From: the human T2T-CHM13v2.0 reference genome, Homo sapiens | Assembly (NCBI RefSeq): GCF_009914755.1 | Contig: NC_060935.1 | DNA length: 64,000 nt | Reading direction: 5' to 3' (one strand) | In this document: positions 6,601 to 34,373 of the stretch, one piece after another | How the letters are laid out: every line of letters begins with the position of its first letter | How positions within the stretch are numbered: position 1 is the stretch's first letter | Notes under the pieces: model-generated | The model's input: only the letters and a program-made list of their open reading frames with translations | Databases searched by the model: none | What the model was told of the DNA's origin: nothing | Position numbers and translations under genes: made by a program

Positions 6601-9600
6601 CCTATGGTGAAAAAGAAAATATCATCAGATAAAAACTAGAAAGAAGCTTTCTGAGAAACTGCTTTGTGATGTGTGCATTCATCTCTCACAGTTCAAACTT
6701 TGTTTTGATTCCGGAATTTGGAAACACTGTTTTTGTACATTCTGCAAATGGATATTTGGGAGCTAATTGGATCCAATGCAAAAAAATGAATATCCAAAGA
6801 TAAAAACTAGAAGGAATCTATGTGAGAAACTCCTTTGTGACGTGTTTATTCATCTCACAGAGTTAAATCTTTCTTTTGACTCAGTAGTTTGGAAACACTG
6901 ATTTTTAAATTCTGTGAAAGGATATTTTGGAGTGTCTCAAGGCCTATGGTGAAAAAGTAAATATCTTCTGATAAAAAGTAGAAAGAAGCTTTATGAGAAA
7001 CTGCTGTGTAATGTGTGTTTTCATCTTATAGTGTTCAACCATTCTTATGATTCAGGAATTTATAAACACAGTTTTTGCCCATTCTGCAATTGGACATTTC
7101 GAAGCTCATTGAAGCCAATGGCAAAAGAGTGAATATCCCATGATAAAAAATAGTAAAAAGCTATCTGAGAAAATGCTTTGTGATGTTTCCATTCATATCT
7201 AGAGTTAAAGGATTCTTTTGATTCAGCAGTTTTGAATCACATTTTCTGTACTATTTGCAAAAGCATATTTGGAGTGTCTTGAAGCCTATGGTGAAAAAGA
7301 AAATATCTTCATCTAAAAATAAGAAGCTGTCTGAGAAGCTGCTTTGCGATTTGTGCATTCATCTCACAGAACTAAACCTTTCTTTTGTTTCAGCAGTTTG
7401 GAAACCCTGTTTTTGTACGTCCTGCGAACGGACGTTTCAGAGCTCATTGAGACCAATGGTGAAAAGTGAACATCCCAGGATAAAAACTAGAAGGAAGCTA
7501 TCTGAGAAACCGCTGTGTGATGTGTGCATTAATCTCACAGAGTTAAATCTTTCTTTATATTGAGCAGTTTGGAAACACTGTTTTAGTAGAATCTGCAAAG
7601 GGATATTTGGGAGCACATTGAGGCCTATTGTGAAAAAAGAAAAATCTTCAGATACAAACTAGAAAGAAGCTTTCTGAGAAACTGCTTTGTGAAGTGTGCA
7701 TTCATCTCACAGAGTTAAATCTTTCTTTTCACTCAGTGAATATCCCAGGACAAAAACTAGATGGATGCTATCTGAGAATCTGCTTTCTGATGTGTTCATT
7801 CATCTCTCAGAGTTCAACCATTGTTTTCATTCAGCAGTTTGGAAACGTTATTGTTTTCAGAATTTCTGAAGGGATATTTGTGAGCTCATTGAGGCCAATG
7901 GTGAAAAAGCAAATATCCCAAGATATATACCAGCAGGAAACTATCTGAAAACTGCTTTTTGATGTGTGCCTTCTTCTCACAATCTAAACCTTTCTTTTGA
8001 TTCAGCAGTTTGGAAACACTGGTGTTGTAGAATCTGCAAAGAGATATTTGAGAGTGCTTTGAGGCCTATGGTAAAAAAGAAAATATATTCAGATAAAAAC
8101 TAGAAAGAAACATTCTGAGAAACTGTGATGTGTGCATTCATCATATGGAGTTAAACATTTCTTTTGATTCAGCAGTTTGGAAACACTGTCTTTGTCGATT
8201 CTGCAACTGGACATTTGGAAACTCATTGAGGCCAATGGTGAAAAACCGAATATCCCAGGAAAAACTAGGAGCAGCCTATCTGAAAAACAGCTTTGTGATG
8301 TGTGCATTCATCTCACAGAGTTAAACTATCTTTTCATTCAGCAGTTTGGAAACACTGCTTTGTAGAATCTCTAAAGTGATATTTGGGAGCTCATTGAGGC
8401 CAATGGCAAAAAAGCAAATATCCCCAGATAAACAAGAAGGAAGATATCTGAGAAACCGCTTTGTGATGTGTGCATTAGTCTCACAGAGTTAAACCATGCT
8501 TTGTCTCGCAGAGTTCAACCATTCTTTTGATTTAGCGGTTTGGAAACACTGTTTTTTTCCCTTCTGTGAACAGACATTTGGGAGTGCTTTGAGACCAATG
8601 GTAAAAAAGAAAATATCTTCTGAGAAAAAGTATAAAGAAGCTTTCTGAAAAACTGCATGGGGGTGTGTGTATTCAACTCACATAGTTAAAACATTCTTTT
8701 AATTCAGCAGTTTGGACTCACTGTTTTTTTAGAATCTGCATAGGGATATTTCAGAGCACATTCAGGCCTATGTTGAAATAGAAAATATCTTCAGATAAAA
8801 AGTAGAAAGAAGCTTTCTGAGAAACTACTTTGTGAATTGTGCATTCGTTTCTCAGAGTTGTAGTTTTATTTTCATTCTGCATTTTGGAAACACTGGTTTT
8901 TTTTTTTATTCTGTGAATGGACATTTGGGAGCTCATTGATGCCTTTCTCAAAAAATTGAATATCCCAGGATAAAAACTAGAAGGACGCTATCTGAGATAC
9001 TGGTTTGTGATGTGCACATTCATCTCACGGAGCTAAACCTCTGTTTTCATTCAGCAGTTTGGAAACACTGTTTTTGTAGTATATTTGAAAGGATATTTGG
9101 GAGGGCATTGAGGCCCATGGTGAAAAATAAAATATCTTCTGATAAAAACTAGAAAGAAGCTTTCTAGGAAACTGCTTTGTGATGTGCGCATTCATTTCAC
9201 TGATTTAAACTTTCTTTTGATTCAGTGGTATGGAAACACTGTTTTTTTAGAATCTGCAGGAGAATATGTGGGAGTGCATTGAGGCCTATGGTGAAAAAGA
9301 AAGTATCTTCAGGTATGAAGTAGGAAGAAGCTTTCTGAGAAACCGCTTTGTGATGTGTGCATTCATCTCACAGAGTTAAAGACTTCTTTTCATTCAGCAG
9401 TTTGGAATCACTGTTTTTGTCGGTTGGGTGAATGGAGTTTTGAGAGGGCATTGAGGCCAAAGGCAAAAAAGCGAATATCCCCAGATAAAAACTAGAAGGA
9501 AGCTATCAGAGAAGCCCTTTTTGATGCGTGCATTCATCTCACAGAGTTCAACCTTTGTTTTCATTCAGCAGTTTGGAAACACTTATTTGGCAGAATCTGC

Positions 9601-10716
9601 AAAGGGGTATTTAGTAGTACATTGATGCCTATGGTAAAAAAGAAAATATCTTGAGCTAAAAACTAGATATATGCTATCGAGAAACCACTTTGTGATGTGT
9701 GCATTCATCTCACAGAATTAAACATTTCTTTTCAGTCAGCAGTTTGTAAACACTGTTTTTGTAAAAACTAAGAAGGGATATTTGGGAGTGCATTGAGGCC
9801 TATGGTGAAAAAGAAAATATTTTCAAAGAAACAGTAGAAAGAAGCTTTCTGAGAATATGCTTTGTGATGTGTGCATTCATATCACAGAATTAAACCTTTC
9901 TTTTCATTCAGCAGTTTTGAAACTCTGTTTTTGTACATTCTGCAAATGGAAATTTGGAAGCTCATTGATGCCATTGGTGAAAAAGCAAATATCCACAGAG
10001 AAAAACTAAAAGGAATCTATCAGAGAAACCAGTCTGTGACGTGTGCATTCCCTGGCAGAGGTAAACCTTTCTTTTGATTCAGCAGTTTGGAAACTGTTTT
10101 AGTCCATTCTGTAAATGGACATTTGGGAGCTCATTGAGGCCATTGGAGAAAAAGCGAATTGAGGCCATTGGAGAAAAAGCGAATTTCCCAGGATAAAAAC
10201 TTGAAGGAAGCAATCGAGAAACTGCTTTGTGATGTGTGCTTTCATCTCACAGAGGTAAACCATTCTTTTCATTCAGCAGTTTGGAAACACTGTTTTTGTC
10301 CATTCTGTGAATGGACATTTGGGAGCTCATTGAGGTCATCGGAGAAAAAGTGAATATCCCAGGGTAAAAACTAGAAGGAATCAATCTGAGAAACTGCTTT
10401 GTGATGTATGCGTTTATCTTGCAGTGGTAAACCTTTGTTTTCATTCAACTGTTGGAAACACTGTTTTTGTAAAATAGACACAGGGATATTTGGGAGCACA
10501 TTGAGGCCTATGGAGAAAAAGAAATTGTCTTCAGATAAAAGCTAGAAAGAAGCTTTCTGAGAAACTGCTTTGTGATGTGTGCATTCATCTCACAGAGTTA
10601 ACTTTTCTTTTGATTTAGCAGTTTGGTAACACTGTTTTTGTCCGTTCTGTGAATGGATATGTGGGAGCTCATATAGGCCTATAGTGAAAAAGATATTATC
10701 TTCTGATAAAAACTAG
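669..10716 (+). repeat. Alpha satellite, old divergent array of two loosely alternating monomer types
   Basis: About 59 monomers with CTGAGAAACTGCTTTGTGATGTGTGCATTCATCTCACAGAGTTAAA. Variants GCCTATGGTGAAAAAGAAAATATCTTCAGATA..AAAGAAGCTTTCTG and GCCAATGGCAAAAAAGTGAATATCCCAGGATA..AGGAAGCTATCTG alternate. No CENP-B box seen. Confidence 0.98.
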
Positions 10717-11318
10717 AAAAATATAGCTGAATTCTTTTTCTCAGCAAGGAACATCCCTGAGAAAGGGAATATGTTTTCAAGAGGAGGTCTCTGAAATGGC
10801 TGCTTTGGGAAGGTCTATCTTTTATGGTTGTAGATAAGGGATGAAATAAGCCCCAGTCTCCCATCATGCTCCCAAGCTTATTAGGATGAGGAACTTCCAG
10901 CCTAATAAATTTTGGTCAGACTGGTTGTCTGCTCTCAAACCCTGTCTCCTGATAAGATGTTATCAATGACAGTGCGTGCCCAAAATTTCATTAGCAATTT
11001 TAATTTCACCCCGGTCCTATGATCTCACCCTGCCTCCATTTGCTTTGTGATATTTTATTACTGTGTGCAGCATGTGATCTCTGTGATGCACACCTTATTC
11101 ATACACTCCATTCCCTTTTGAAAATCGCTAATAAAAACTTGCTGGTTTTGTGACTCAGGGGGCATAATGGAACCTGCTGACATATGATGTCTTCCCCGGA
11201 CACCCAGCTTTAAAATTTCTCTCTTTTGTACTCTTTCCCTTTATTTCTCAGACAAGCTGACACTTAGGGAAAATAGAAAAGGACCCACGTGAATATCAGG
11301 GCCTGGTTTCCCCTGATA
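10717..11318 (+). repeat. 5' LTR (MER11), lacking about the first 457 bp
   Basis: Aligns to 17608-18208 of the 3' LTR. AATAAA at 11130-11135. Ends GGTTTCCCCTGATA, followed by a TC spacer and the PBS. Confidence 0.93.
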
Positions 11319-11320
11319 TC

Positions 11321-11396
11321 TGGTGTCCAATGTGGGGCTTGAACCCACTACCCTGAGATTAAGAGTCTCACGCTTCATCAACTAAGCTATTCGGTT
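11321..11396 (-). pseudogene. Full-length reverse-transcribed copy of tRNA-Lys(CTT) with encoded CCA, occupying and extending the proviral PBS
   Basis: The + strand reads TGGTGTCCAATGTGGGGCTTGAACCCACTACCCTGAGATTAAGAGTCTCACGCTTCATCAACTAAGCTA. This matches the complement of tRNA-Lys(CTT) without gaps (45/50, and 58/69 overall, by hand). Anticodon complement AAG at 11361-11363. The last ~7 nt are uncertain. Confidence 0.93.
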
Positions 11397-12156
11397 TCTC
11401 TACCTTTTCCTCAGCCTTCCACTCCCACACTGCCCTCGTTATCTCATTAGCCTCTCCCTTCAGCTACACCTCCCCTACCTAACAATGCTGAAAATTCATT
11501 GTCTAACTCCGATGACTTTGGCTTAACATTACCCCTTACCTATCTTACTTCTTTTCATGAAGAGCCAGTACTTGAAGCTCCTGTGGCCCTGACTCACACA
11601 GCCTGGGACCATAGATATGCTAATTCTTCTCTCTTCAAACCTCCAGGATCAGCTAATGGTTCTGGGATGAAACTACAATTTACCTATAATTCTCCAGGTC
11701 CTCCCCCATCCACTACAGCCCCTCACCCTCCTGTCATTTCAGTTCCTCAACCTGTCTGCATCATTATGTACCTCTGAATCTTACCTTTTTAAAGCAATTT
11801 AAGGATGTTTGTACTCAGTATGGTCCTACTTCTCCTTATGTTAAAATGGTAATACAAACTTTTTGTACTGAAGTTGTTTTGCTTCCTTTAGACTTGGATC
11901 TTTTGGCAAAAAGCTTTTCTAACCCCATCGCAGCCTGGTGGGCAGTGGAAGCCCATTTGCAGGCTCAGCTAAATTGGACTAATGACATTCTAATTACTCA
12001 GGCTCAGCTCACAGTCTCTGATAGTTTCTCTGATGTTTATGCCCAATTAAACTTTGATGCTCTTACCACATAACAAGTAACAAACGTGTGTATGATTGCT
12101 TGGGAAAAATTATATGCCCAGGCCAAGCTCCTGTTTCTTTTACTACTGTTAAACAA
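11397..12156 (+). pseudogene. gag: gag remnant (Pro-rich region and capsid N-terminal part; leader, MA, MHR and NC missing)
   Basis: Translates to LKQFKDVCTQYGPTSPYVKM, DLLAK and AAWW, resembling betaretroviral CA. No MA start or CCHC zinc knuckles visible. Confidence 0.8.
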
Positions 12157-12503
12157 ATTCAATTGCTTTTACTACCTAATATCATTTTAAACAAAGGAGA
12201 TAAGACACATGGCCTTGGGATGGGCCCTGGTAGTGAGAAAGCCACTTATTGGATTAATGTTATTTCTAAACAATGGCCCACCTGCATTGTACACATTCAA
12301 GGGAAAAAGTTTTGAGAGCCTAGTAGATACTGAGGCTGAAATTAATATTCCACATAACTCTTATAGTGCTCCCAGTCAGCATATGATGGAAAACATGGGG
12401 TTGGCTCCTGGGATCAGTCTTGGTCTAAAGGCATGAAAAGATTACTAAACCCTTCCCAGTTACTGTAAAATAAGACAGGGCTGGTTTAGATGATCATTTT
12501 TAG
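12157..12503 (+). pseudogene. pro: pro remnant: dUTPase C-terminus, protease N-terminus and G-patch
   Basis: IQLLLLP; KATYW..PTCIVHIQGKKF; LVDT(E)A active-site remnant; YSAPSQHMMENMGLAPGISLG G-patch. Confidence 0.82.
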
Positions 12504-15132
12504 TGGCAGCCACTGCCACACCTCCTGATCCTATCCCCTTACAATGAAAATCTGACACACCCATTTGGATTCAGTAGTGGCCACTTTCTAAGCAAAAACT
12601 GGAGGCTTTAACTCACTTGGTTTCTGAACAGCTACAACTTGGAAATGTGGAACCTTCTCTTTCCCTCTAGAATTCTCCTGTGTTTCTAATGAAAAAGAAA
12701 TCAGCCAAGTGGCAGATGCTAACCAATTTAAGGGCCATTAATGCTGTAATTAAACCTATGGGGGCCATCCAACCTGTCATGCCTGCCTCTTCTTTAATAC
12801 CTAAATTTTGGCCTCTCATAGTTATTGATCTTAAAGATTTTTTCACATTGCTTTACATAAATAAGATTCTGAAAAAATTGCTTTTACTGTACCACCTGTC
12901 AATAATCAGGAGCCTGCAACTCGTTATCATGGAAAGTACTTCCTCAGGGAATGCTGAATAGCCCTACAATCTGCCAGCTTTATGTTGGACAGTGCTTTCA
13001 GCAGTTGAAGCCCAATTTCTCCAGGCGTATATTCTTCATTATATTGATGATATTTTAATTACTGCCCCCACTGATAAAGAATTAATTGACTGTTATCAAA
13101 TTTTGAGGCCCCATGTTACAGAGGCTGGATTACCCATCACTCACGATAAAATTCAACTGACCACTCCTGCTCAATATTTAGGAATGGTGGTTGATAAACA
13201 ACGTATTTAACCTCAAAAAGTTCATATTAGGAGAGATTCCTTAAAAACTTTAAAAGACTTCCAAAAACTTTTGGGTAACATTAATTATTTAAGACCTATT
13301 TTAGGTATTCTGACCTATGCACTGTCTAACTTGTTTTCTACCCTGTGGGGAGATTCCAACCTCTGCAGTCCCAGGACTTTGACACCTGAGGCTTCACTAG
13401 AACTGGAATTCTTAGAGGAAAGAATCCAGGCCACCCAGTTATCTAGAGTACAGCCACTTCAGCCTTTTCAGCTTCTGGTTTTCCCTTCATTACATTCCCC
13501 TACTGGACTAATAGTTCAAAATAATGCTTTAGTGGAGTGGTGTTTTCTTCCTCATTCTGTGTCAAAAATTTTGTTTATCTCGACCAAATAGCCATCTTAA
13601 TTGGACAGACTTAGTGTAGAATACTTCAAATTTCCAGATTTGATCCGAATTTAATGGTAGTTCCTTTAAATCAGCTCAAAGTTCAAGCCGCTTTTCAACA
13701 TTCCATAGTGTGGAAAATTCACTTGGCTGATTTCTTTGGTGTTATTGACAATCATTATCCAAAGAACAAATTGTTTGAGTTTATGAAAATGACGTCTTGG
13801 GTTGTCCCTCAATTAACCAAAGATCAGCCCATTCCTGAGGCAGTTACAGTGTTCACTGATGGCTCTAGTACTGGCAATGCTGGTTATGTAGATCCTACAG
13901 ACAAGCTTATTTCTGCCTCTTATACATCTGCTCAAAAGGCAGAGTTAATTGCTGTGATTACTGCCTTACAGGATTTCCCCCAAACCTATAAATATTGTAT
14001 CTGACTCTGCTTATGTTGTACATGCCACTAAAAATATAGAAACTGCTACTATCAAATATGTTGATAATTCTGAACTGGTTTCTTTATTTTCAAGGTTACA
14101 ACAGGCGGTTCACCAACCTAGATACCCTTTCTATATTACATATATTAGATCTCATACCACTTTACCAGGACTCATGTCTGCTGGTAACCATAAAGTTGAC
14201 TGTTTGGTCTCTTTTGCAACCCAAGAAGCTAAGGAGTTCCATAATCTCACTCATGTCAATGCTGCTGGATTAAAAGATAAATTTGCTCTTACCTGGAAAC
14301 AGGCTAAGTTTATTGTTCACAGCTGCCCTCAGTGTCAGGTCTTTGTACTTCCAAATCAGGAACCTGACATTAATCCCAGAGGCCTAACTCCTAATGGTTT
14401 ACAGCAAATGGATGTGACTCATGTTAGCTCCTTTGGCAGACTGTCATATGTGCATGTTTCTGTAGCTACCTTCTCAGGTTTCATCTGGGCTACTTATCAA
14501 ACAGGGGAAGGCATGGCCCATGTTAAAAAAATCTGTTTTCTTCTGTTGCAGTTATTGGGCTTCCATATCAAATAAAGACAGACAAGGTCCCTGGATATGT
14601 TAGTAAGGCTTTTGATTTATTTATGCAACAGTGGGGAATTTCCCATATTACTGGAATCCCTTATAATCCTCAGTGACAAGCTGTGGTGGAATGGGCCAAT
14701 CACACTTTAAAAACCCAATTGTCCAAACAGTCTGAACAACAAAAACATAATTTAACTAACCCCCACTCCCAATTACATTTAGCATTGTTTACTTTAAATT
14801 TTTTAAATGTTCCTAAAGATAATAATCTAACTGCAGCCAAACGCCATTATACAGGCAAAAAATTCTCCCTAAACAAAGGCAACCCAGTGTTATGGAAAAA
14901 CTCCCAAACTAATACTTGGGAACCTGGCACAATTATAACGTGGGGAAGAGGCTATACTTTTGTTTCACCAGGAGATCATCAATCCCCTTTCTGGGTACCC
15001 ACCAGGAGCCTCAAGCTTCGGGTGTATACTGACAATGAAAACCACAGGGAAAAGACGTCCATGTCAGAGACTGCCCTCAGACATGGTGAGATCTGTGACG
15101 ACTCCTCAGAAGCAGGCACACCAAATCACTGA
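12498..15132 (+). pseudogene. pol: pol (RT, RNase H, integrase), disrupted
   Basis: [28 protein letters not shown] (13040-13051), VFTDGSS, SAQKAELIA, HNLTH..CPQC zinc finger, QMDVTH, WGRGY. Confidence 0.95.
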
Positions 15133-15311
15133 TTCAATCCTCCCTGATGTCAATGTAGACCCATCTAACTAATCCCACTTCTCCTGATTACCTTTTCTTT
15201 TCTTCTTACAAACCTAAAAATCTCACCATTTCTATTGGCCTGAAAATAACATCCCTCTGTTCTTCTCTTCCTCCTTTAGCATTCAATCTCACTTACAATG
15301 GGTTTTATTTA

Positions 15312-17133
15312 ATGATTCTCCTCCTTATACTTTCTATCTTACCAGTTTCCTCTCACAATGGTTTACCTGCTACACAAAATTATTCTTTTTGGGCTTATGT
15401 GCCTTTTCCTCCACTTATTCGACCTCTCACCTGGATAGATACTCCTGCAGAAATCTACACTAGTGATAGTGTGTGGATGCCTGGAGCTACAGATGACTTT
15501 TGCCCTGCTCAACCAGGAGAAGAAAGTACTGCATTTAATATTACCATGGGTTATAAATACCCCACTCTGTGCCTCAGACATGCACCTGGTTGTATCCATC
15601 TAGAAACTCAAGTCTGGGCTGTTTATCTTCTGGAGAGATCAGCTAGAGGAACCAGGACCTTTGGTCTCTAGCCTCTCCCTTTCTCCTTTAATACAAACGA
15701 AAGGGGGATTAATGGGAGATACCCCATACTTTCAATATAAACCTGTAGGAAAACCATGCCCTAAAAATTTTGAGGGCCCATCTAAAACCTTAATTTGAGA
15801 AGATTGTGTTAACTCACATGCGGTAATATTAAAAAATGACTCATATGGTTCAGTAATAGGCTGGGCACCAAAGGGCTATTTAAAAAACAATTGCTTCTCT
15901 GGCAGAAAGGAATGCCTGTAGGCTACTTATTTTATTTCTTAACAGGAGAACTAGAATCATCATTCTACTTTGCATAGGAGGTGTAGTTAATTCTTTCCCT
16001 TAAAATGGGAAGATAAAGTCATTACCCCCCTGAGGCCTTGTATGATACTCCCCATTCTGAGCCCAGAACACCCAGAACTTTGGAAATTGGCTATTGCCAT
16101 GTCTGGACTGCGAATTTGGGAAGGGGAAACTATTCTGCTATTCTGTCTGTTGTCCCCACTACTGTCCCCCTCTCTCAGTATCAATATAGATCCAGACATT
16201 CTACTTTACTTACCTCCAACCTGACTGTTCCCATACAAAGTTGTGTTAAGCCTCCTTACATACTGTTAGTGGGAAACATCAAAATTTGGACAAACAATCA
16301 AACTGTCCAATGCATTAATTGTCATTTATACACTTGTATTAACTACCATTTTGACTCCAGGAAAAGTGTAATGTTGGTTAGAGCTAGAGAAGGAATCCGG
16401 ATTCTGGTAAGTTTGCTTAGACTTAGGAATCCTCTCCCACAACACATTTAATTAATGAAGTGTTACAGTGAATTCTAAAAAGATCTAAGAGATTTGTTTT
16501 CACTTTAATCACTGTGATCATGGGCCTAATTATAGTCACTGCAATGACCACCACTGCCAGAATAGTGTTACATCAATCTATTCAAACAGCTCATTTTGTT
16601 AATGATTGGCAAGCCAATTCCACCCAAATGTGGAATTCTCAACAAGGCATTGATCAAAAATTGGCTAATCAAATTAATGATTTAAGACAGTCTGTTATTT
16701 GGCTTGTAGATCGGGTAGTGAGTCTTGAACATAGCATGAAAATGCAGTGCGATTGGAAAACACTGGATTTCTGTATCACCCCATATTCCTATAATGAGAC
16801 TGATCATTCATGGAAAATGGTCAAAGGACAACTTCTGGGTAGGGAAGATAATTTATCACTGGACATAACTAAATTAAAGAAACAAATTTTTGGAGGCTCT
16901 CAAGCTCACTATTCCATTGTGCCTGGAGCTGAGGCATTAGATCAGGTGGCAGATAATCTTTATGGAATAAACCCCACGACTTGGATTAAGTCTATTTGGG
17001 GCTCCACTGTAGTAACTTTTGGAATTATGTTTCTCTGTTTAATCAGCTTGTTTTAGTGTGCTGGACCAGTCAAAGAATTCTGCATCAAAATCGATAGAAT
17101 GAACGAGCCTTCATTGCCATGGCACATTTATAT
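15312..17133 (+). pseudogene. env: env (SU/TM), disrupted; true start probably further upstream
   Basis: Hydrophobic signal segment, WAYVPFPPLIRP, CVKPPY, furin site RSKR/FVF at 16481, [24 protein letters not shown], transmembrane segment. Confidence 0.93.
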
Positions 17134-17150
17134 AAAAAGAAAGGGAGAGA
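17134..17150 (+). other. Polypurine tract (plus-strand primer)
   Basis: AAAAAGAAAGGGAGAGA immediately before the TG start of the LTR. Confidence 0.92.
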
Positions 17151-18208
17151 TGTTGTGGGAATTAAGGGACACCGAGTGGAGGGACCAGCGGAAGCCATGG
17201 CAGAAGAACTTAAATTGTGAAGATTCCATGGACAGATTTTAGTTCCCCAAATTAATACTTTTATAATTTTTTATGCCTGTCTTTACTGCAATCGCTGAAC
17301 ATAAATTGTGAAGATTTCATGGACACTTATCACTTCCCCAATCAGTACTCTTGTGATTTCCCATGCCTGTCTTTACTTTAATCTCTTAATTCTGTCATCT
17401 TCATAAGCTGAGGGTGAATGTTGCCTCAGAACCATGTGATGATTGCGTTAACTGCAAAAATTGTTTAAACAATATGAAATCTGGGCACCTTAAAAAAAGA
17501 ACAGGATAACAGCGATGTTCAGGGAAAAGGGAGATAACCTTAAAGTCAGGCTGCCTGTGGGCTGGGTGGAACAGAGCCATAGTTCTCTTCCTTCAGAAGC
17601 AAATAGCAAAAATATCACTGAATACTTTTTCTAGCAAGGAACATGCCTGAGAAAGAGAATGTGTTCCCAAGGGGAGGACTCTGAAATGGCCACTTTGGGA
17701 ACGTCTGTCTTTTATGGTTGTACATTAGGGATGAAATAAACCCCAGTCTCCCATAGTGCTGCCAGGCTTATTAGGATGAGGAACTTCCCGCCTAATAAAT
17801 TTTGGTCAGACCAGTTGTCTGCCCTCAAACCCTGTGTCCTGATAAGATGTTTTCAATGACAATGCGTGCCCAAAACTTCATTAGCAATTTTAATTTCACC
17901 CTGGTCCTGTGATCTTGCACTGCCTCCATTTGCCTTGTGATATTTTATTACCATGTGTAGCTTGTGATCTCTGTGACCCACATGCTATTTGTACACTCCC
18001 TCCCTTTTTGAAAATCACTAATAAAAACTTGCTGGTTTTGCAGCTCAGGGAGCATCACAGAATCTGCCAACATGTGATGTCTCCCCCAGCAACCCAACTT
18101 TAAAATTTCTCTCTTTTGTATTCTTTCCCTTTATTTCTCAGACAAGCTGACACTTAGGGAAAATAGAAAAGGACCCACGTGAATATCAGGGACTGGTTTC
18201 CCCCAATA
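17151..18208 (+). repeat. 3' LTR, complete (~1058 bp), MER11B/C-like
   Basis: TGTTGTGGGA start. Internal ~91-bp repeat (TAAATTGTGAAGATT at 17211 and 17302). AATAAA at 18020-18025. Ends CCCCAATA, then satellite TGCATTCATCTC. Confidence 0.93.
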
Positions 18209-21200
18209 TGCATTCATCTCACAGAATTAAACCTTACTTTTCATTCAGCAGTTTGGAAACAGTGGTTTTGTAGAATCTGTGAAAGCATATTTTAGAATGC
18301 CTTTAGGCCTATGGTGAAAAAGAAAATATCTTCAGATAAAAACCAGAAAGAAGCTTTCTCAGAAACTGCTTTGTGATGTGTGCATGTCTGTCACAAAGTT
18401 AAACCTTTCTTTTGATTCAGCAGTTTGAAAACACTGATTTTGCAGAATCTGAGAAGGGATACTTGGGAGTGCATGGAGGCCATGGTGAAAAAGAAATTAT
18501 ATTCAGTTAAAAACTAGAAATATCCTTTCTGAGAAACTGCTTTGTGATGTGTGCATTCATCTCACAGAGTTAAACCTTTATTTGGATTCAGCAGTTTGGA
18601 AACACTCTTTTTGTCCATTCTGCGAATGGACATTTGGGAGCACTTTGAGGCCAATGGCAAAAAAGCTAATATCCCAGGATAAACACTAAAAGGAAACTAT
18701 CTGAGAAACTACTTTGAGATGTGTGCATTCATCTCACAGAGTTAAACCTTTCTTTTCATTCACCAGCTTGGAAATAGAGTTTTGATAGAATCTGCAAAGG
18801 GATATTTGGGAATGCATTATGCCTATGGTGAAAAATAATATATTTTCAGGTAATAACAAGAAAGATGTTTACTGAGAAACTGCTTTGTGATGTGTGCTTT
18901 CATCTCACAGAGTTAAACAATTCTTTTGATTCAGCCAAGTGAAAACACCATTTTTGTAGAATCTGTGAAGGGGCATTTGCAAGCACATTTAAACCTTTTG
19001 TGAAAAATAAAATATATTCTGATAAAAACTGGAAAGAAACTTTCTGAGAAACGGCTTTGTGATGTGTGCATTCATCTCACAGAGTTAAATCTTTCTTTGG
19101 ATTCAGCAGTTTGGAAAAACTGTTTTTGTCCATTTTGTGAAAGGACATTTGGAACTCATTGACGAAATGGAGAAAAAGCAAATATCCCATGGTAAAAGCT
19201 AGAAGAAAACTATCTGAGAAACTGCTTTGTGATGTGTGCATTTATCTGACAGAGTTAAACCTTTCTCTTCATTCAGCAGTTTAGAAACACTGTTTTTGTA
19301 CAATGTGGGAAGGGACAGTTGGGAATGCATTGAGGTCAACGGTGAAAAAGAAAATTTCTTCAGATAAAAAATAGAAAGAAGCATTCTGAGAAACTGCTTT
19401 GTGATGTGTGCTTTCATCTGACAGAGTGAAACCTTTCTTTTGATTCAGCAGTTTGGAAACACGGTTTTTGTAGAATCTCCAAAGGTGAATTTGGCAGGTC
19501 ATTCACACCAATGGCAAAAAAGGGAATATCCTGAGATATAAACTATAACAAAACTGTCTGACAAACTGCATTGTAATGTGTGCATTCATCTCACAGAGTT
19601 AAAGCTTTCTTTTGTTTCAGTAGTTTGGAAACACTGTTTTTGTACATTCTGTGAATGGACATTTGGGAGCGTGTTGAGGCCTACAATGAGAAGGAAGATA
19701 ACTTCTGATAAAACTAGAAAGAAGCTTTCTGAGAAAGTGTTTTCTGATGTGTGCATTCAACTCACAGGTTTTAAACTTTCTCTTGATTCAGCAATAAGGA
19801 AAAGCTGATTTTGTAGAATCTCCAAAGGGATATTTGGGAGCGCATTGTGGCCCATGGTGAAAAAGAAAATATCTTCAGATAAAAACTACAGAGAAGTTTT
19901 CTGAGAAACTGCTTTGTCATGCGTGTATTCATCTCTCAGTTTTAAACCTTTTTTGATTCAGCATTTTGGAAACACTTCTTTTGTCCATTCTGCGAATGGA
20001 CATTTGAAAGAGCATTGAGGACATTGGCCAAAAAGTGAATATCCCAGGATAAAAACAAAAGTAATCTATCAGAGAAAATGCTTTGTTATGTGTGCATTCC
20101 TCTTGCGGAGTTAAACCTTTTTTTTCATTCAGCAGGGTGGAAACACTGTTTTTCTAGATTCTGTGAAAGGATAATTTTGAGTGCATTGAGGCCTATCTTG
20201 AAAAAGGAAGTAGCTTCAGGTAATGCTAGAAAGAAGCTTTCTGAAGAACTGTTTTGTGATGTGTGCCTTCATCTCACAGATTTAAAACTTTCTTTTTATT
20301 CAGCAGTTTGGAAACACTATTTTTATTCATTGTTGGAAAGGACAACTGGGAACTCATTGAGGCCAAATGCGAAAAAGAGAACATCCATGGAAAAAAACTA
20401 GAAGGAAGCTATCTGAGAAACCACTTTGTAATGTGTGCAATCATCTCACAGAATGAAACCTTTCTTGTCATTCAGCAGTTTGGAAAAAATGTTTTTGAAG
20501 AATCTGTGAATGGACATTTGGGAGTGCATTGAAACCTATGGTGAAAAAGAAAGTATCTTTTGATAAAAACTAGAAAGAAGCCTTCTGAGAAACTGATCTG
20601 TGATGTGTGCATTCCTCTCACTTAGTTAAAACACACTTTTATTCAGCTATTTGGAAACACTGTTTTTGTAGAATTTGTGAAGGGATATTTGAGAGTGCAT
20701 TGAGGGCTATGGTGAAAAATAAAATATCTTTAGATAAAAACAAGAAAGAAGCTTTCTGAGAAACTGCTTTGTGAAGTGTGCACTCACCTCACCGAGTTAA
20801 ACCTTTCTTTGGATTCAGCAGTTTGGAAACAATGTTTTTGTCCATCCTCCAAAAAGACATTTGGGAGCTCGTTGAGGACAAAGGCAAAAAAGCAAATATC
20901 CCAGTGTAAAAACTAGAAAGAAGCTATCTGAGAAACTGCCTGGTCATGTGTGCATTCATCTCACAGATTTAACGTTACTTTTCTTTCAGCAGTTTTGAAA
21001 CACCATTTTTGTAGAATCTGTGAAGGGATTTTTGGGAGCACATTGAGGCCTATGGTGAAAAAGCAAATATCTCCTGATAAAAACCATAAAGAAAGTTTCT
21101 AAATAAATGCTTTGTGATGTGTGCATTCATCCCAAAAATAAACATTTCTTTTTATTCAGCAGTTTGGAAACACTGTTTTTGTCCATTATATGAACAGGTA

Positions 21201-24200
21201 TTTGGGAGCTCATTCTAGCCAATGGCAACAAAGTGAATATCCCTGGATAAAACCTAGAAGGAAGCTATCTGAGAAACCGTTTTGTGATGCGGGCATTCAC
21301 CCCACAGAGTGAAATCATTCTTTTCATTCAGCAGTTTGGAAACACTGTTTTTGTAGGATCTGTGAAGTGATATTTTGTAGCTCACTGATGCTTATGGTGA
21401 AAAAGAAAATATCTCCTGATAAAAACTAGAAAGAAGCCTTCTGAGAAACTGATCTGTGATGTGCGCATTCATCTCACTTAGTTAAAACACACTTTTATTC
21501 AGCTGTTTGGAAACACTGTTTTTGTAGAATTTGTGAAGGGATATTTGAGAGTGCATTGAGGGCTATGGTGAAAAATAAAATATCTGTAGATAAAAACAAG
21601 AAAGAAGCTTTCTGAGAAACTGCTTTGTGACGTGTGCACTCACCTCACCGAGTTAAACCTTTCTTTGGATTCAGCAGTTTGGAAACAATGTTTTTGTCCA
21701 TCCTCCAAAAAGACATTTGGGAGCTCATTGAGGACAAAGGCAAAAAAGCAAATATCCCAGTGTAAAAACTAGAAGGAAGCTATCTGAGAAACTGCCTGGT
21801 CATGTGTGCATTCATCTCACAGAGTTAAATGTTACTTTTCTTTCAGCAGTTTTGAAACACCATTTTTGTAGAATTTGTGAAGGGATTTTTGGGAGCACAT
21901 TGAGGCCTATGGTGAAAAAGCAAATATCTCCTGATAAAAACCATAAAGAAAGTTTCTAAATAAATGCTTTTTGATGTGTGCATTCATCCCAAAAATAAAC
22001 CTTTCTTTTTATTCAGCAGATTGGAAACACTGTTTTTGTCCATTATATGAACAGGCATTTGGGAGTTCATTCAGGCCAATGGCAGCAAAGTGAATATCCC
22101 TGGATAAAACCTAGAAGGAAGCTATCTGAGAAACCGTTTTGTGATGTGTGCATTCATCCCACAGAGTGAAATCATTCTATTCATTCAGCAGTTTGGAAAC
22201 ACTCTTTTTGTAGGATCTGCGAAGTGATATTTTGTAGCTCACTGACGCTTATGGTGAAAAAGAAAATATCTCCCGATAAAAACTAGAAAGAAGCCTTCTG
22301 AGAAACTGCTTTGTGATGTGTACATTCATCTCACAGAGTTAAACCTTTTTTTGGATTCAGCAGTTTGGAAAAACTGTTTTTGTAGAATCTGCAAATGGAC
22401 ATTTTGGAGCACATAGAAACCTATGGTGAAAAAATATATCTTCAGATAAAAACTAGAAAGAAGCTTTCTGAGAAACTCCCTTGTGATGTGTGCATTCATC
22501 TCACAGAGTTAAACTTTTCTTTGGATTCAGCAGTTTGGAATCATCCTTTTTGTCCATTCTGCAAAAGGACATTTGGGAGCTCATTGAGGACAATCACAAA
22601 AAAGTAAATATCCCAGTGTAAAAACTAGAAGGAAGCTATCTGAGAAACTGCTTTGTGATGTGTGCATTCATCTCACAGAGTTAAACTTTCTCTTCATTCA
22701 GCAGTTTAGAAACTCTGTTTTTGTACAACATGGAAAGGGATACTTGAGAGAGCACTGAGGTCTATGGTGAAAAAGAAAATAACTTCAGGTAAAAACTAGA
22801 AAGGAGATCTCTGAGAAACTACACTGTGATGTGTGCATTCACCTGACAGAGTTAAACAATTTTTTTGATTCAGCAGTTTGGAAACATGGTTTTTGTAGAA
22901 TCTCATAAGCAATATTTAGTGACTCATTCAGGCCAAAGGTGAAAAAGAGAATATCCTGAGATATAAACTATAATGAAACTATTTGACAAACTGCATTGTG
23001 ATGTGTGCATTCATCTCAAAGAGTTAAAACTTTCTTTTGATTCAGTAATTTGGGAACACTGTTTTTGTACATTCTGTGAATGGACATTTGGGAGCATATT
23101 GAGGCCTACAATGAGAAAGAAAATAACTTCTGATAAAACTAGAAAGAAGGTTTCTGATAAAGTGCTTTCTGATGTGTGTGACAATCTGTGCAACTCACAG
23201 ATTTACAACTTTCTTTTGATTCAGCAGTTTGGAAACACTGAATTTGTAGAATCTTCAAAGGGATATTTGGGAGTGCATTGTGGCCCACGGTGAAAAAGAA
23301 ACTATCTTCAGTTAAAAACTAGAAAAAATCTTTCTGACAAACCTCTTTGAGGTGTGTGCATCCAACTCACAGAGTTAAATGTTTCTTTCAATGCAGCATT
23401 TGGAAACAGTGTGGTTCTCCATTCTATGAATGGACACTTGAGAGCTCATTGAGGACAAGGGCAAAAAAAAATCTAATATGCCTGGATAAAAACCAGAAGT
23501 AATTTACCTGAAAAACCACCTGGTCATGTGTGCATTCATCTCACAGAGTTAAACGTTACTTTTCTTTCAGCAGTTTTGAAACACCATTTTTGTAGAACCT
23601 GTGAAGGGATTTTTGGGAGCACACTGAGGCCTATGGTGAAAAAGCAAATATCTCCTGATAAAAACCGTAAAGAAGGTTTCTAATGAAATGCTTTGTGATA
23701 TGTGCATTCATCCCAAAATAAACGTTTCTTTTGAGTCAGCAGTTTGGAAACACTGTTTTTGTCCATTATATGAACAGGCATTTGGGAGCTCATTCAGGCC
23801 AATGGCAACAAAGTGAATATCCCTGGATAAAACCTAGAAGGAAGCTATCTGAGAAACCGTTTTTTGATGTGTGCATTCATCCCACAGAGTGAAATCATTC
23901 TTTTCATTCAGCAGTTTGGAAACACTGTTTTTGTAGAATATTAGAAGTGATATTTTGTAGCTCACTGATGCTTATGGTGAAAAAGAAAATATCTCCTGAT
24001 AAAAACTAGAAAGAAGCCTTCTGAGAAACTGCTTTGTAATGTGTGCATTAATCTCACAGAGTTAAACCTTTCTTTGGATTCAGCAGTTTGGAAAAACTGT
24101 TTTTGTAGAATCTGCGAATGGACATTTTGGAGCACATAGAAAAGTATGGTGAAAAAAATATATCTTCAGATAAAAACTAGAAAGAAGCTTTCTGAGAAAC

Positions 24201-33395: not shown

Positions 33396-34373
33396 TGTTG
33401 TGGGAAGTCAGGGACACTGAACAGAGGGACCTGCTGAAGCCATGACAGAAAAACATAAATTTTGAAGATTTCCTGGACATTTGTCATTTCCCCAACCAAT
33501 TCCCTTGTAATTTCCTATGCCTGTCTTTAACCTCTTAGTCCCATCATCTTCCAAAGCTGAGTATGTATGTCACCTCAGGACCCTGTGATGATTGTGTTAA
33601 TGCACAGATTGTTTGTAAAGCATATGTGTTTGAACATTATGAAGTCTGGGCACCTTAAGGACAGGATAACCGTGATTTTCAGGGAACAAGGGAGATAAAG
33701 TCTGGTTACCTATGGACTGGGCATGACAGAGCCGTATTTCTCTTATTACTGAAAATGAATAAGAGAAATATCACTGAATTCTTTCCAAGTAAGGAATATT
33801 AATATTTAATGGCATGGGAAAAGAATACATTCCCAGAGGGGGCCTCTAAAATGGCTGCTCTGGGGATGTCCGCCTTATCCTGTTTCAGATAAGGGATGAA
33901 GCATGCCCTGGCATACTGCAGCACCCCGAGGCTTGCTAGGATTAGGACATTCCTGCCTGCCAAATTGCAGTCAGACCAATTCTCTGCTCTTGAACCCTGT
34001 TAAGATGTTTACCAATGAAAATGCATGCACAGCAGGACATGAAACTTCATTAGTAATTCTAGCTTTGCCCTGACCTTGTGATCTCGCCCTGAACTTCTGC
34101 TTTGTGATCCTTTGTTGCCCTTGATGTATGAGATCTCTGTGACACACTACCTATTCATACACTCTCTCCACCTTGAAAATTGCTAATAAAAACTTGCTGG
34201 TTTTAAGGCTCTAGGGACAATACAGATACGGCTGACATGTGATGTTTCCATCATACACCCAGCTTTGAAATTTCTCTCTTTTGTACTCTTCCCCTTTATT
34301 TCACAGACTGGCTGACACTTACTGAAAATAGAAAAGAACCTATGTTGAATTATCAGTGGTGGATCCTCCAATA
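33396..34373 (+). mobile_element. Solo MER11 LTR (MER11A-like), 978 bp
   Basis: TGTTGTGGGAAGTCAGGGAC start and CCTCCAATA end. AATAAA at 34185-34190. TSD (A/G)GAAAC at 33390-33395 and 34374-34379. Satellite phase is continuous across it. Confidence 0.93.

What the first reader, a model, noticed from the sequence alone, without database searches (positions are those of the whole stretch)
11319..11420. Provirus has captured its whole primer tRNA: ~76-nt anti-tRNA-Lys(CTT) in place of an 18-nt PBS, fused to mid-gag
Seen: after the 5' LTR and a TC spacer, complementarity to tRNA-Lys(CTT) does not stop at 18 nt. It runs ungapped through the T arm, the anticodon arm (CCCTGAGATTAAGAGTCTCA is a perfect match) and the D arm, 58/69 by hand, with mostly transition mismatches. 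The sequence then enters a Pro-rich gag region with no leader or MA. Established: plus-strand strong-stop DNA normally ends at m1A58 of the primer tRNA, which limits the PBS to 18 nt. CCA is not encoded in eukaryotic tRNA genes, so this copy came from a mature tRNA. Inference: RT read through a hypomodified primer to its 5' end, and the over-long strong-stop DNA then transferred to a downstream site in gag. One event would explain both the tRNA capture and the leader/MA deletion. Whether this is unique or marks an amplified HML-8 sub-lineage cannot be told from this window.
Basis: partly seen in the sequence, partly recalled or inferred. Interest (0 to 1): 0.9.

Follow-up and report, generated by a model that had tools for sequence, protein, structure and literature searches.

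The report
Provirus that copied its whole primer tRNA
An ancient human endogenous retrovirus carries a full backwards copy of the lysine tRNA that primed its DNA synthesis, fused to its gag gene, a fossil of a copying error already known from defective HIV proviruses.

Summary
Bases 11321-11396 are an ungapped antisense copy of mature tRNA-Lys(CTT), including the complement of CCA. It sits where the primer binding site (PBS) belongs, two bases after the 5' LTR.

The host is the HERV-K(HML-8)/MER11B provirus listed as 11q11, lying in 171-bp satellite. Three intact-leader relatives show about 15 bases of tRNA complementarity, then a leader and a Gag_p10 matrix domain. Here about 570 bases (leader plus matrix) are replaced by 58 further tRNA bases, and the junction lies within 3 bases of the tRNA 5' end.

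Best explanation (0.85): plus-strand strong-stop synthesis ran past A58 to the end of the primer, then resumed in gag. This is the "deferred second-strand transfer" described for 44 defective HIV-1 proviruses (PMC12657518).

The chimera is unique in this genome. The error itself recurs: ten other loci in three LTR families carry 63-76 bases of the same tRNA after an LTR end. The base opposite A58 is a transversion in 3 of 11 loci (P about 3e-4).

I found no report of this in endogenous retroviruses. Interest is moderate.

The parts
7000..10718 (.). 171-172-bp tandem satellite array flanking the provirus on the left
   Evidence: Tandem Repeats Finder gives periods of 171/172/343 and 71-78% matches. 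The array phase shows that at least 32 bases of the repeat unit are missing at the left breakpoint relative to the right flank.
10717..11318 (+). 5' LTR (MER11-type), lacking its first ~457 bases
   Evidence: It is 88.4% identical over 602 aligned bases to 17608-18209. The full LTR, defined by 28 family copies, is 17150/17151-18208. The two LTRs are sisters in a tree of 31 LTR pieces, support 0.88.
11319..11320 (+). TC spacer between the LTR end and the primer binding site
   Evidence: Read directly. The same TC precedes the PBS in relatives L008, L012 and L021.
11321..11338 (+). First 18 bases of the tRNA complement: the normal PBS position
   Evidence: Relatives show only about 15 bases of complementarity here, followed by a T-rich leader.
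11339..11396 (+). 58 further bases complementary to tRNA-Lys(CTT) positions 58 to 1 (read-through part). The whole tRNA copy is 11321-11396, with tRNA sense on the minus strand
   Evidence: ARAGORN; Rfam 39.5 bits; 61/74 ungapped identity to a genomic tRNA-Lys-CTT gene plus CCA.
11394..11398 (+). tRNA/gag junction zone
   Evidence: Alignment with 9 family gag copies. Clear gag homology starts at 11398, and the last certain tRNA base is 11394. The three T's between fit neither parent exactly, so microhomology is at most 1-3 bases.
11397..12073 (+). Remaining gag: Pro-rich region after matrix, and the N-terminal capsid domain
   Evidence: ORFs. Pfam Gag_p24 at E 6.5e-14 on ORF 11690-12073. Homology to family gag copies.
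12058..12436 (+). Second internal deletion zone: mid-capsid runs into a protease-like sequence; nucleocapsid is missing
   Evidence: ORFs read; no Pfam match. It probably corresponds to the recurrent gag-pro deletions (938 and 219 nt) that PMC10194239 reports in several MER11B/C proviruses (passage). I did not measure it.
12671..15132 (+). pol remnants (reverse transcriptase, thumb, RNase H, integrase), broken by stops and frameshifts
   Evidence: Pfam RVT_1, RVT_thumb, RNase_H, Integrase_Zn, rve and IN_DBD_C.
15159..17056 (+). env remnants
   Evidence: Pfam HERV-K_env_2 at E 1.8e-22 and GP41 at E 7.3e-19.
17151..18208 (+). Complete 3' LTR (~1060 bases)
   Evidence: Extent defined by 28 family LTR copies. 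No tRNA-derived bases follow it.
18209..21988 (.). 171-172-bp tandem satellite array on the right
   Evidence: Tandem Repeats Finder: period 172, 22 copies.

Best explanation
This is a dead HERV-K(HML-8)/MER11B provirus that was already defective when it was made. It has no present function that I can see; it is a fossil of a reverse-transcription error.

1. Minus-strand DNA was primed by tRNA-Lys(CUU).
2. Plus-strand strong-stop DNA then copied U3-R-U5 and went on into the primer tRNA, which was still attached to the minus strand.
3. Normally this synthesis stops after 18 bases, at methylated A58. Here reverse transcriptase went on to the 5' end of the tRNA, or within 2 bases of it.
4. The over-long 3' end no longer matched the minus-strand copy of the primer binding site. 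It resumed, with at most 1-3 bases of microhomology, on minus-strand DNA at the end of the matrix-coding part of gag.
5. The plus strand therefore carries LTR-TC-whole antisense tRNA-gag and lacks the leader (about 138 bases) and the first 431 or so bases of gag.
6. After integration, the strand difference was resolved in favour of this version.

SHOWN: the anatomy, the identity and orientation of the tRNA, the size and edges of the deletion, the family, and the single-copy status in this genome.

INFERRED: the order of events during reverse transcription, the heteroduplex step, and integration by integrase. The target duplication is lost, because a later deletion removed the first ~457 bases of the 5' LTR and some flanking satellite.
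For: - The tRNA is called by two programs, with 61/74 ungapped identity to a genomic tRNA-Lys-CTT gene plus CCA.
- It starts exactly at the PBS position after the TC spacer and is antisense. Only plus-strand copying of the covalently attached primer predicts this.
- It is the family's own primer. Relatives L008, L012 and L021 have about 15 bases complementary to the same tRNA at the same place.
- Homology to 9 of 9 family gag copies resumes at 11398, within 3 bases of the tRNA 5' end.
- The copy does not run on into anything like a tRNA gene flank.
- In relative L012 the replaced stretch is 1639-2207, about 569 bases. In L008 this stretch encodes Gag_p10 at E 3.5e-23, while none of the 13 window ORFs tested (11451-17056) has it.
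- The two LTRs are sisters in the family tree (support 0.88). The control pair from one chrX provirus scores 0.96.
- The same architecture and explanation are in print for HIV-1: 44 proviruses with tRNA-Lys3 inserts of 7-54 bases that define the deletion junction (PMC12657518, passages). m1A58 is needed for the strong stop in vitro (PMC8599865, abstract).
- Ten further loci in this genome show 63-76 bases of the same antisense tRNA after an LTR end.
- The base opposite A58 is a transversion in 3 of 11 loci, against 10 of 764 at all other positions (P 3.4e-4). This fits copying of a modified RNA, not of a gene.
Against: - The process itself cannot be observed.
- No target-site duplication can be checked, because the 5' LTR is truncated.
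- Microhomology at the junction is weak and obscured by three T's that fit neither parent.
- The tRNA part is more diverged than the LTR pair predicts: 8 of 62 non-CpG sites, against an expected 5.5% per lineage (P 0.02). With the 0.077 terminal branch of the 5' LTR, about 4.8 changes are expected, so the excess is weak.
- Sister support for the LTR pair is moderate (0.88), and the two LTRs are no more alike (88.4%) than each is to the closest other family copies (up to 89.6%).
- No other primate genome could be searched.
Confidence: 0.85

Rival explanations
1. Two separate events. The provirus first had a normal or extended PBS region. A later chromosomal deletion then happened to remove everything from the tRNA 5' end to the end of matrix.
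For: The locus lies in unstable satellite and did suffer at least one later deletion, of the 5' LTR start plus flank. The provirus has another internal deletion in gag-pro.
Against: One deletion edge would have to fall within 3 bases of the tRNA 5' end by chance. A full tRNA copy followed by an intact leader is not seen in any of the family copies examined: 0 of 3 with leaders, and no such hit in the junction search. In HIV-1 the tRNA insert itself marks the deletion junction.
Confidence: 0.05
2. A separate LTR-plus-tRNA unit (an over-long strong-stop DNA, like locus L070) inserted in the same orientation into the gag of an older HML-8 provirus. The older 5' part was deleted later.
For: Free LTR+tRNA units do seem to exist in this genome (L070 and L063). 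The 5' LTR is truncated and has no target duplication. The two LTRs are only 88.4% identical, no closer than to some unrelated copies.
Against: The 5' and 3' LTRs are sisters with a shared branch (support 0.88). This reading needs an insertion in the right orientation plus a deletion of about 2 kb ending inside the new LTR, so it takes more steps than the one-event model.
Confidence: 0.05
3. DNA-level repair or gene conversion. A break at the PBS was repaired using a chromosomal tRNA-Lys-CTT gene as template, through the 15-18 bases of shared sequence.
For: The PBS and the gene share a stretch of identity that could seed such repair.
Against: The copy ends at the mature 5' end of the RNA rather than running into a gene flank. 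Across 11 loci no copy extends past tRNA position 1. The A58 position carries excess transversions, as expected for a modified RNA template. There is no homology on the gag side to complete a conversion.
Confidence: 0.03
4. Independent retroposition of a tRNA (LINE-1-mediated, with or without a tail) that landed by chance on the PBS.
For: Such copies exist in this genome. L082 is a CCA-bearing tRNA-Lys copy next to a long A/T run, and L083-L088 are partial copies without LTRs.
Against: There is no poly(A) and no target duplication around the tRNA piece. The piece is in perfect register with the PBS, in the orientation and position of the primer, and it is the cognate primer. The same arrangement recurs at 10 other LTR ends.
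Confidence: 0.01

Closest known systems
Defective HIV-1 proviruses with a tRNA-Lys3 insert at the deletion junction ('deferred' or aberrant second-strand transfer; Hardy et al., Commun Biol 2025, PMC12657518; passages read)
   Same: 5' LTR, PBS, further antisense primer-tRNA bases, then a downstream viral sequence on the same strand, with the tRNA insert marking the 5' edge of an internal deletion. Same explanation: read-through of the A58 stop, then transfer downstream. A change opposite A58 was seen in 5 of 44 sequences there and in 3 of 11 loci here.
   Different: Those are somatic proviruses of a living lentivirus primed by tRNA-Lys3, with inserts of 7-54 bases. This one is a germline-fixed betaretrovirus-like HERV-K(HML-8) element tens of millions of years old. 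It was primed by tRNA-Lys(CUU), and the copy runs to the very end of the tRNA (58 bases beyond the PBS).
[quoted passage not shown]
   Same: Endogenous retroviruses that keep primer-derived bases because the tRNA primer was handled abnormally during plus-strand synthesis. About 6.5% of complete mouse proviruses are said to show it.
   Different: In the passage I read, the extra bases are the 5-base linker and the PBS at the right end of the element, with no internal deletion. Here a whole tRNA sits after the 5' LTR and replaces the leader and matrix.
Circular retroviral DNA with a tRNA sequence between the LTRs
   Same: A cloned murine leukaemia virus DNA in which the primer tRNA had been copied beyond the PBS next to U5.
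   Different: That was an unintegrated circle from an acute infection, not an integrated, inherited provirus with a gag fusion.
Tailless or poly(A)-bearing tRNA retropseudogenes made by LINE-1 (Schmitz et al., Genome Res 2004; recalled, not read)
   Same: DNA copies of mature tRNAs that include CCA.
   Different: They are not in register with an LTR and PBS. The example found here (L082) lies next to a long A/T run and has no LTR.

Membership tests
Provirus made by primer-tRNA read-through with aberrant plus-strand (second) transfer | Antisense copy of the tRNA begins with the complement of CCA at the PBS position, directly after U5 and its spacer | tested here: met
   TGG at 11321-11323, two bases after the LTR end at 11318.
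Provirus made by primer-tRNA read-through with aberrant plus-strand (second) transfer | The tRNA is the family's own primer species | tested here: met
   3 of 3 intact-leader relatives (L008, L012, L021) have about 15 bases complementary to the 3' end of tRNA-Lys(CTT) at the same place.
Provirus made by primer-tRNA read-through with aberrant plus-strand (second) transfer | Complementarity continues without a gap beyond base 18 (past A58) | tested here: met
   Ungapped to position 74-76; 61/74 identical.
Provirus made by primer-tRNA read-through with aberrant plus-strand (second) transfer | The tRNA insert marks the 5' edge of an internal deletion, and the sequence after it is downstream viral sequence on the same strand | tested here: met
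   Homology to 9 of 9 family gag copies resumes at 11398. About 569 bases of L012 (1639-2207) are absent. The matrix domain is present in L008 and absent here.
Provirus made by primer-tRNA read-through with aberrant plus-strand (second) transfer | The copy never extends beyond the 5' end of the mature tRNA (RNA template, not gene) | tested here: met
   It ends within 2-3 bases of position 1. The same limit holds in all 11 loci.
   The base opposite A58 is the faithful T here. 3 of the 11 loci show a transversion there, so both routes may occur.
HERV-K(HML-8) with MER11B LTRs | Listed locus and LTR type | tested here: met
   The table in PMC10194239 lists 11q11, plus strand, chr11:54758703-54766192 (7490 bases), MER11B, 42.8 My. 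The window provirus spans 7492 bases on the plus strand (10717-18208) of the same chromosome region. This match rests on place, size and strand, not on a lift-over. Relatives L008/L006, L012 and L021 lie near listed HML-8 loci Xp21.1, 2p14 and 12q23.3.
HERV-K(HML-8) with MER11B LTRs | Betaretrovirus-type gene order and domains | tested here: met
   Gag_p24, RVT_1, RVT_thumb, RNase_H, Integrase_Zn, rve, IN_DBD_C, HERV-K_env_2 and GP41, in that order.
HERV-K(HML-8) with MER11B LTRs | Direct match to the Dfam/Repbase HERVK11-int and MER11B consensus | not testable with these tools
   No repeat library is on hand.
LINE-1-mediated tRNA retropseudogene | Own target-site duplication and/or poly(A), at a place unrelated to an LTR | tested here: not met
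   No A-run or direct repeat brackets 11321-11396. The piece is in register with the PBS.
Functional tRNA-Lys gene | Intact cloverleaf, and CCA not encoded | tested here: not met
   The Rfam match is local (model 8-63 of 71), the acceptor stem has decayed, and CCA is encoded. 0 of 10 real genes encode CCA.

The most novel reading that the evidence does not exclude
The human genome holds a fossil series of primer-tRNA read-through products from at least three HERV-K-type LTR families (11 loci found).

Two things would follow.
- Some apparent solo LTRs were never proviruses. They would be over-long plus-strand strong-stop DNAs (complete LTR plus 63-70 tRNA bases) that entered chromosomal breaks without integrase. 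L070 sits in an Alu with no target duplication, and L063 is flanked by a 54-base duplication.
- The substitution pattern and end points of these copies record the modification state of germline tRNA-Lys tens of millions of years ago: transversions opposite A58, and ends clustered at tRNA positions 11-14 and 1-2.
Probability: 0.4. Interest if true: 0.7.

Novelty: new member of a known kind. Interest (0 to 1): 0.55.

Why it matters
It shows that a reverse-transcription error now being catalogued in HIV-1 reservoirs also happened in the primate germline about 30-50 million years ago and was inherited. That error is reading through the A58 stop of the primer tRNA and restarting downstream.

For annotation, it explains why a tRNA-Lys pseudogene is called inside a catalogued HML-8 provirus, and why that provirus lacks its leader and matrix.

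For retrovirology, the recurrence at 11 loci in three LTR families gives natural data on three points: where ancient reverse transcriptases stopped on a modified tRNA, how often A58 was misread, and what the cell did with the aberrant DNA. The outcomes seen are downstream transfer, transfer back into the LTR, transfer onto a plus-sense template, and apparently integrase-independent insertion.

It does not reveal a new mechanism.

Tried and rejected
- **Amplified sub-lineage.** Rejected for this genome. With window 11200-11520 as query, only the window itself covers 1-321, among 40 scored of 1438 candidates. With the junction query 11286-11400, all 21 candidates were scored and only the window covers 1-115. 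The search scores only the best candidates and skips very common words, so this is not an exhaustive scan.
- **The family reference already contains the tRNA.** Not supported. 3 of 3 copies with leaders lack it. I could not see the Dfam or Repbase consensus.
- **APOBEC-type editing of the tRNA piece.** I considered this only by looking at the mismatch list. The C-to-T changes have no consistent neighbour, so I dropped it without a formal test.
- **Excess divergence of the tRNA piece as a sign of error-prone copying.** Weak (P 0.02 against the LTR-pair rate), and explained by the long terminal branch of this locus. Not claimed.
- **tRNA-Lys(TTT).** The query I gave was shifted by 8 bases into the gene flank. 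Of 12 scattered hits fetched, one (L108) has the complement of CCA and about 50 antisense bases. I did not examine its upstream context, so nothing is claimed.
- **Literature.** Eight full-text searches gave no paper describing a whole or extended primer tRNA in a HERV. PMC10194239 has no occurrence of 'PBS' or 'tRNA' in its main text. The HML-8 preprint 10.1101/2022.02.10.479833 analyses only 18 bases in three proviruses. I did not open supplements of these papers or of Vargiu et al. 2016; they may list PBS calls for this locus.
- **Papers of little or no use.** PMC12220202 (abstract only) concerns a tRNA-Gly insertion at the 3' end of HIV proviruses and is a different case. PMC1170264 (Ty plus-strand transfer) is not held.

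Full report
**1. The observation**

ARAGORN finds one tRNA in the whole window: tRNA-Lys with anticodon ctt at 11321..11395 on the minus strand. Rfam's tRNA model scores 39.5 bits against a gathering score of 29 (E 2.4e-6). The match is local, model positions 8-63, so the acceptor stem has decayed.

I took real tRNA-Lys-CTT genes from the same genome and compared them without gaps.
- The window matches the isodecoder with the A-U pair in the anticodon stem, plus the complement of CCA, at 61 of the first 74 positions.
- Of the 13 mismatches, 11 are transitions and 5 are in CpG context. Positions 75-76 also differ.
- The three bases flanking the 3' end of the ten best-matching genes are never the complement of CCA (0 of 10).

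The copy begins two bases (TC) after the LTR end at 11318, which is where a primer binding site belongs.

**2. The host element**

BLAST within the window pairs 10717-11319 with 17608-18209 at 88% identity.

Twenty-eight LTR copies of the same family, fetched from the rest of the genome, show that the complete LTR is 17150/17151-18208, about 1060 bases. The 5' LTR therefore lacks its first ~457 bases.

Both flanks are 171-172-bp tandem satellite. The repeat phase does not continue across the element, so a later deletion took the start of the 5' LTR together with some flank. No target-site duplication can be read.

Between the LTRs, Pfam finds Gag_p24, reverse transcriptase, thumb, RNase H, the three integrase domains, HERV-K_env_2 and GP41 in betaretroviral order, all broken.

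The table in Scognamiglio et al. (PMC10194239) lists an HML-8 provirus '11q11', plus strand, 7490 bases, MER11B, 42.8 My. The window element spans 7492 bases (10717-18208) on the plus strand in the same region. Three relatives used below lie near listed HML-8 loci Xp21.1, 2p14 and 12q23.3. This is a match by place, size and strand, not a lift-over, and no repeat library was on hand.

The two LTRs differ by K2P 0.128. This gives about 30-49 My at 0.21-0.13% per site per My.

In a tree of 31 LTR pieces the two LTRs are sisters (support 0.88). The two LTRs of the chrX provirus, used as a control, pair at 0.96. I left out L003 because it is the window's own 3' LTR.

**3. What is missing**

Three family proviruses with intact leaders (L008, L012, L021) show the same order of parts after the same TC spacer:
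- about 15 bases complementary to the 3' end of tRNA-Lys(CTT);
- a T-rich leader;
- a gag start about 155 bases after the start of the PBS.

In L008 the stretch between the PBS and the point that corresponds to the window's junction encodes the matrix domain (Gag_p10, E 3.5e-23). None of the 13 window ORFs tested (11451-17056) has it.

Aligned with nine family gag copies, the window's gag homology starts at 11398. The last certain tRNA base is 11394. The three T's between fit neither parent exactly.

In L012 coordinates, bases 1639-2207 are replaced by 58 tRNA bases. That is about 138 bases of leader and 431 bases of gag. Microhomology at the junction is 1-3 bases at most.

A second deletion, from mid-capsid into protease, probably matches the recurrent gag-pro deletions reported for MER11B/C proviruses (passage). 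I did not measure it.

**4. Mechanism**

The orientation is antisense, the register is exact (complement of CCA against the spacer), the tRNA is the family's own primer, and the copy ends at the RNA's 5' end. Together these fit one process: plus-strand strong-stop DNA copying the primer tRNA that is still joined to the minus strand, without stopping at A58, and then restarting downstream.

This has been described for HIV-1. Hardy et al. (PMC12657518, passages read) report one provirus and 43 GenBank sequences. In these, 7-54 tRNA-Lys3 bases follow the PBS and define the deletion junction. They call it a deferred second-strand transfer, and they note a change opposite A58 in 5 of 44.

Fukuda et al. 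(PMC8599865, abstract) show that m1A58 is needed for the strong stop in vitro.

For endogenous elements, Blanco-Melo et al. (PMC5930517, passages) found linker/PBS bases after the 3' LTR in about 6.5% of complete MuERV-L proviruses, and suggested poor removal of the primer.

Whether the primer was undermethylated cannot be told: the base opposite A58 is the faithful T.

**5. Rivals**

- **A later chromosomal deletion.** It would need an edge within 3 bases of the tRNA end by chance.
- **A separate LTR+tRNA insertion into an older provirus.** The sister LTRs argue against it, though support is moderate. The pair is also no more alike (88.4%) than each LTR is to its closest unrelated copies (up to 89.6%).
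- **Repair templated by a tRNA gene.** This does not explain why the copy stops at the mature 5' end, nor the A58 signal described below.
- **LINE-1 retroposition.** This is excluded by the lack of a tail or duplication and by the register. True examples look different (L082 and L083-L088).

**6. Is the chimera amplified?**

No other place in this genome has the same junction.
- With window 11200-11520 as query, 40 of 1438 candidates were scored and only the window covers 1-321.
- With the junction query 11286-11400, all 21 candidates were scored and only the window covers 1-115.

These searches score the best candidates only, so they give lower bounds. No other primate genome was available.

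**7. The error recurs**

The same searches and one with the real tRNA gene (46 candidates, 40 scored) turned up ten further loci. In each, the complement of CCA (TGA in one) and 63-76 antisense tRNA-Lys(CTT) bases follow an LTR end.

The loci fall into three LTR families.
- MER11-type: L070 and L078.
- An LTR of about 990 bases: L072, L067, L071, L066, L063, L064 and L068. This is probably old HML-2, because L066 and L068 lie near the listed HML-2 loci 16p13.3 and 19q13.12b. I did not verify this.
- A third family whose copies mostly end at the same base: L062 (670 candidates).

The structures differ.

| Locus | Structure |
|---|---|
| L070 | Complete LTR plus 63 tRNA bases inside an Alu; the target is contiguous, with no duplication |
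| L063 | Flanked by a 54-base direct repeat of the target |
| L064 | LTR, tRNA, then the last 49 bases of the LTR again, with a perfect 6-base target duplication |
| L072 | The LTR's last ~395 bases and the tRNA repeated, with a 5-base duplication |
| L066 | LTR, full tRNA, then gag in antisense |
| L068 | Full tRNA with 13 LTR-end bases inside pol |

Over all 11 loci the tRNA-derived parts are 711/775 identical to the genes. The position opposite A58 is a transversion in 3 of 11, against 10 of 764 elsewhere (binomial P 3.4e-4). No other position has more than one transversion.

Copy ends cluster at 63-66 bases (4 loci), 70-71 (2 loci) and 74-76 (5 loci). I judged the extents partly by eye.

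**8. Verdict**

- The element is a new, germline and complete example of a known kind of defective provirus. It sits in a catalogued HML-8 locus whose published descriptions do not mention it: none in the main text of PMC10194239 or in the preprint's 18-base PBS analysis. I did not see their supplements.
- Eight literature searches found no report of such captures in HERVs.
- The wider pattern is the more interesting lead. It is only partly followed up here.

Noticed in passing
L070 (= L002/L032), own genome C7:98.37 Mb: A complete MER11-type LTR followed by TC and 63 antisense tRNA-Lys(CTT) bases sits inside an antisense Alu. The Alu continues on the other side with no duplication and no loss beyond about 3 bases. 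This looks like an over-long plus-strand strong-stop DNA inserted without integrase.
   Followed up: partly
L063 (= L048), own genome C19:55.0 Mb: A ~990-base LTR plus about 70 tRNA bases is flanked by a 54-base direct repeat of the target. The LTR start lacks 2-3 bases. The base opposite A58 is T>A.
   Followed up: partly
L064, own genome C18:46.28 Mb; L072/L073 (= L033/L034), C1:39.37 Mb: Here the tRNA lies between LTR sequences. L064 is LTR, tRNA (~71 bases), then the last 49 LTR bases, with a perfect 6-base target duplication. L072 is LTR, tRNA (66 bases), then the last ~395 LTR bases, repeated twice, with a 5-base duplication. This suggests transfer of the over-long strand back into the LTR.
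   Followed up: partly
L066 (= L044), own genome C16:2.95 Mb: An LTR and a full 75-76-base tRNA copy are followed by gag in the opposite orientation, from the nucleocapsid zinc knuckle back through capsid to matrix. This is as if the over-long strand switched onto a plus-sense template. The base opposite A58 is T>G. The locus lies near the HML-2 locus 16p13.3 listed in PMC3228705.
   Followed up: partly
L068, own genome C19:38.12 Mb: A full 76-base antisense tRNA-Lys(CTT) with only about 13 LTR-end bases sits inside pol, between the protease/G-patch end and RNase H. The base opposite A58 is T>A.
   Followed up: partly
L067, L071, L078, L062 (C5:26.30 Mb, C15:93.55 Mb, C7:12.73 Mb, C1:54.84 Mb): Four more LTR ends are followed by 63-76 antisense tRNA-Lys(CTT) bases and then by non-viral sequence. 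I saw no clear 5-6-base target duplication for L067 and L071. I did not look for one at L062. L062 belongs to a third LTR family with at least 670 candidate copies.
   Followed up: partly
L008, L012, L021 (HML-8 proviruses at C23:34.39 Mb, C2:63.99 Mb, C12:105.26 Mb): In all three intact-leader copies the complementarity to tRNA-Lys(CTT) stops after about 15 bases and is followed by T's where the tRNA predicts GGC. A normal 18-base strong-stop end would then be mismatched at its last three bases in this family. Whether this favours aberrant transfer is speculation.
   Followed up: no
L008:1840-2040: The matrix-coding region of these HML-8 copies contains a tandem duplication of about 100 bases. 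Pfam reports two Gag_p10 stretches.
   Followed up: no
window 33835-34356: A third, more distant copy of the LTR's 3' part: 72.7% identity to the 5' LTR over 535 aligned bases.
   Followed up: no
L108, own genome C2:61.65 Mb: The complement of CCA is followed by about 50 bases resembling antisense tRNA-Lys(TTT). The upstream context was not examined, so it is unknown whether an LTR precedes it.
   Followed up: no
L097, L101, L103, L105 (C16:79.30 Mb, C17:61.66 Mb, C3:15.21 Mb, C19:52.53 Mb): tRNA-Lys(TTT)-like copies without CCA share about 30 bases of similar sequence on the 3' side of the tRNA. They look like a small dispersed repeat or duplicated gene family.
   Followed up: no
L082, own genome C5:168.92 Mb; L083-L088: L082 is a CCA-bearing tRNA-Lys(CTT) copy next to a long A/T run (LINE-1 type). 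The other six are partial copies of the 5' part of the tRNA without any LTR. They served as contrasts to the LTR-linked class.
   Followed up: partly
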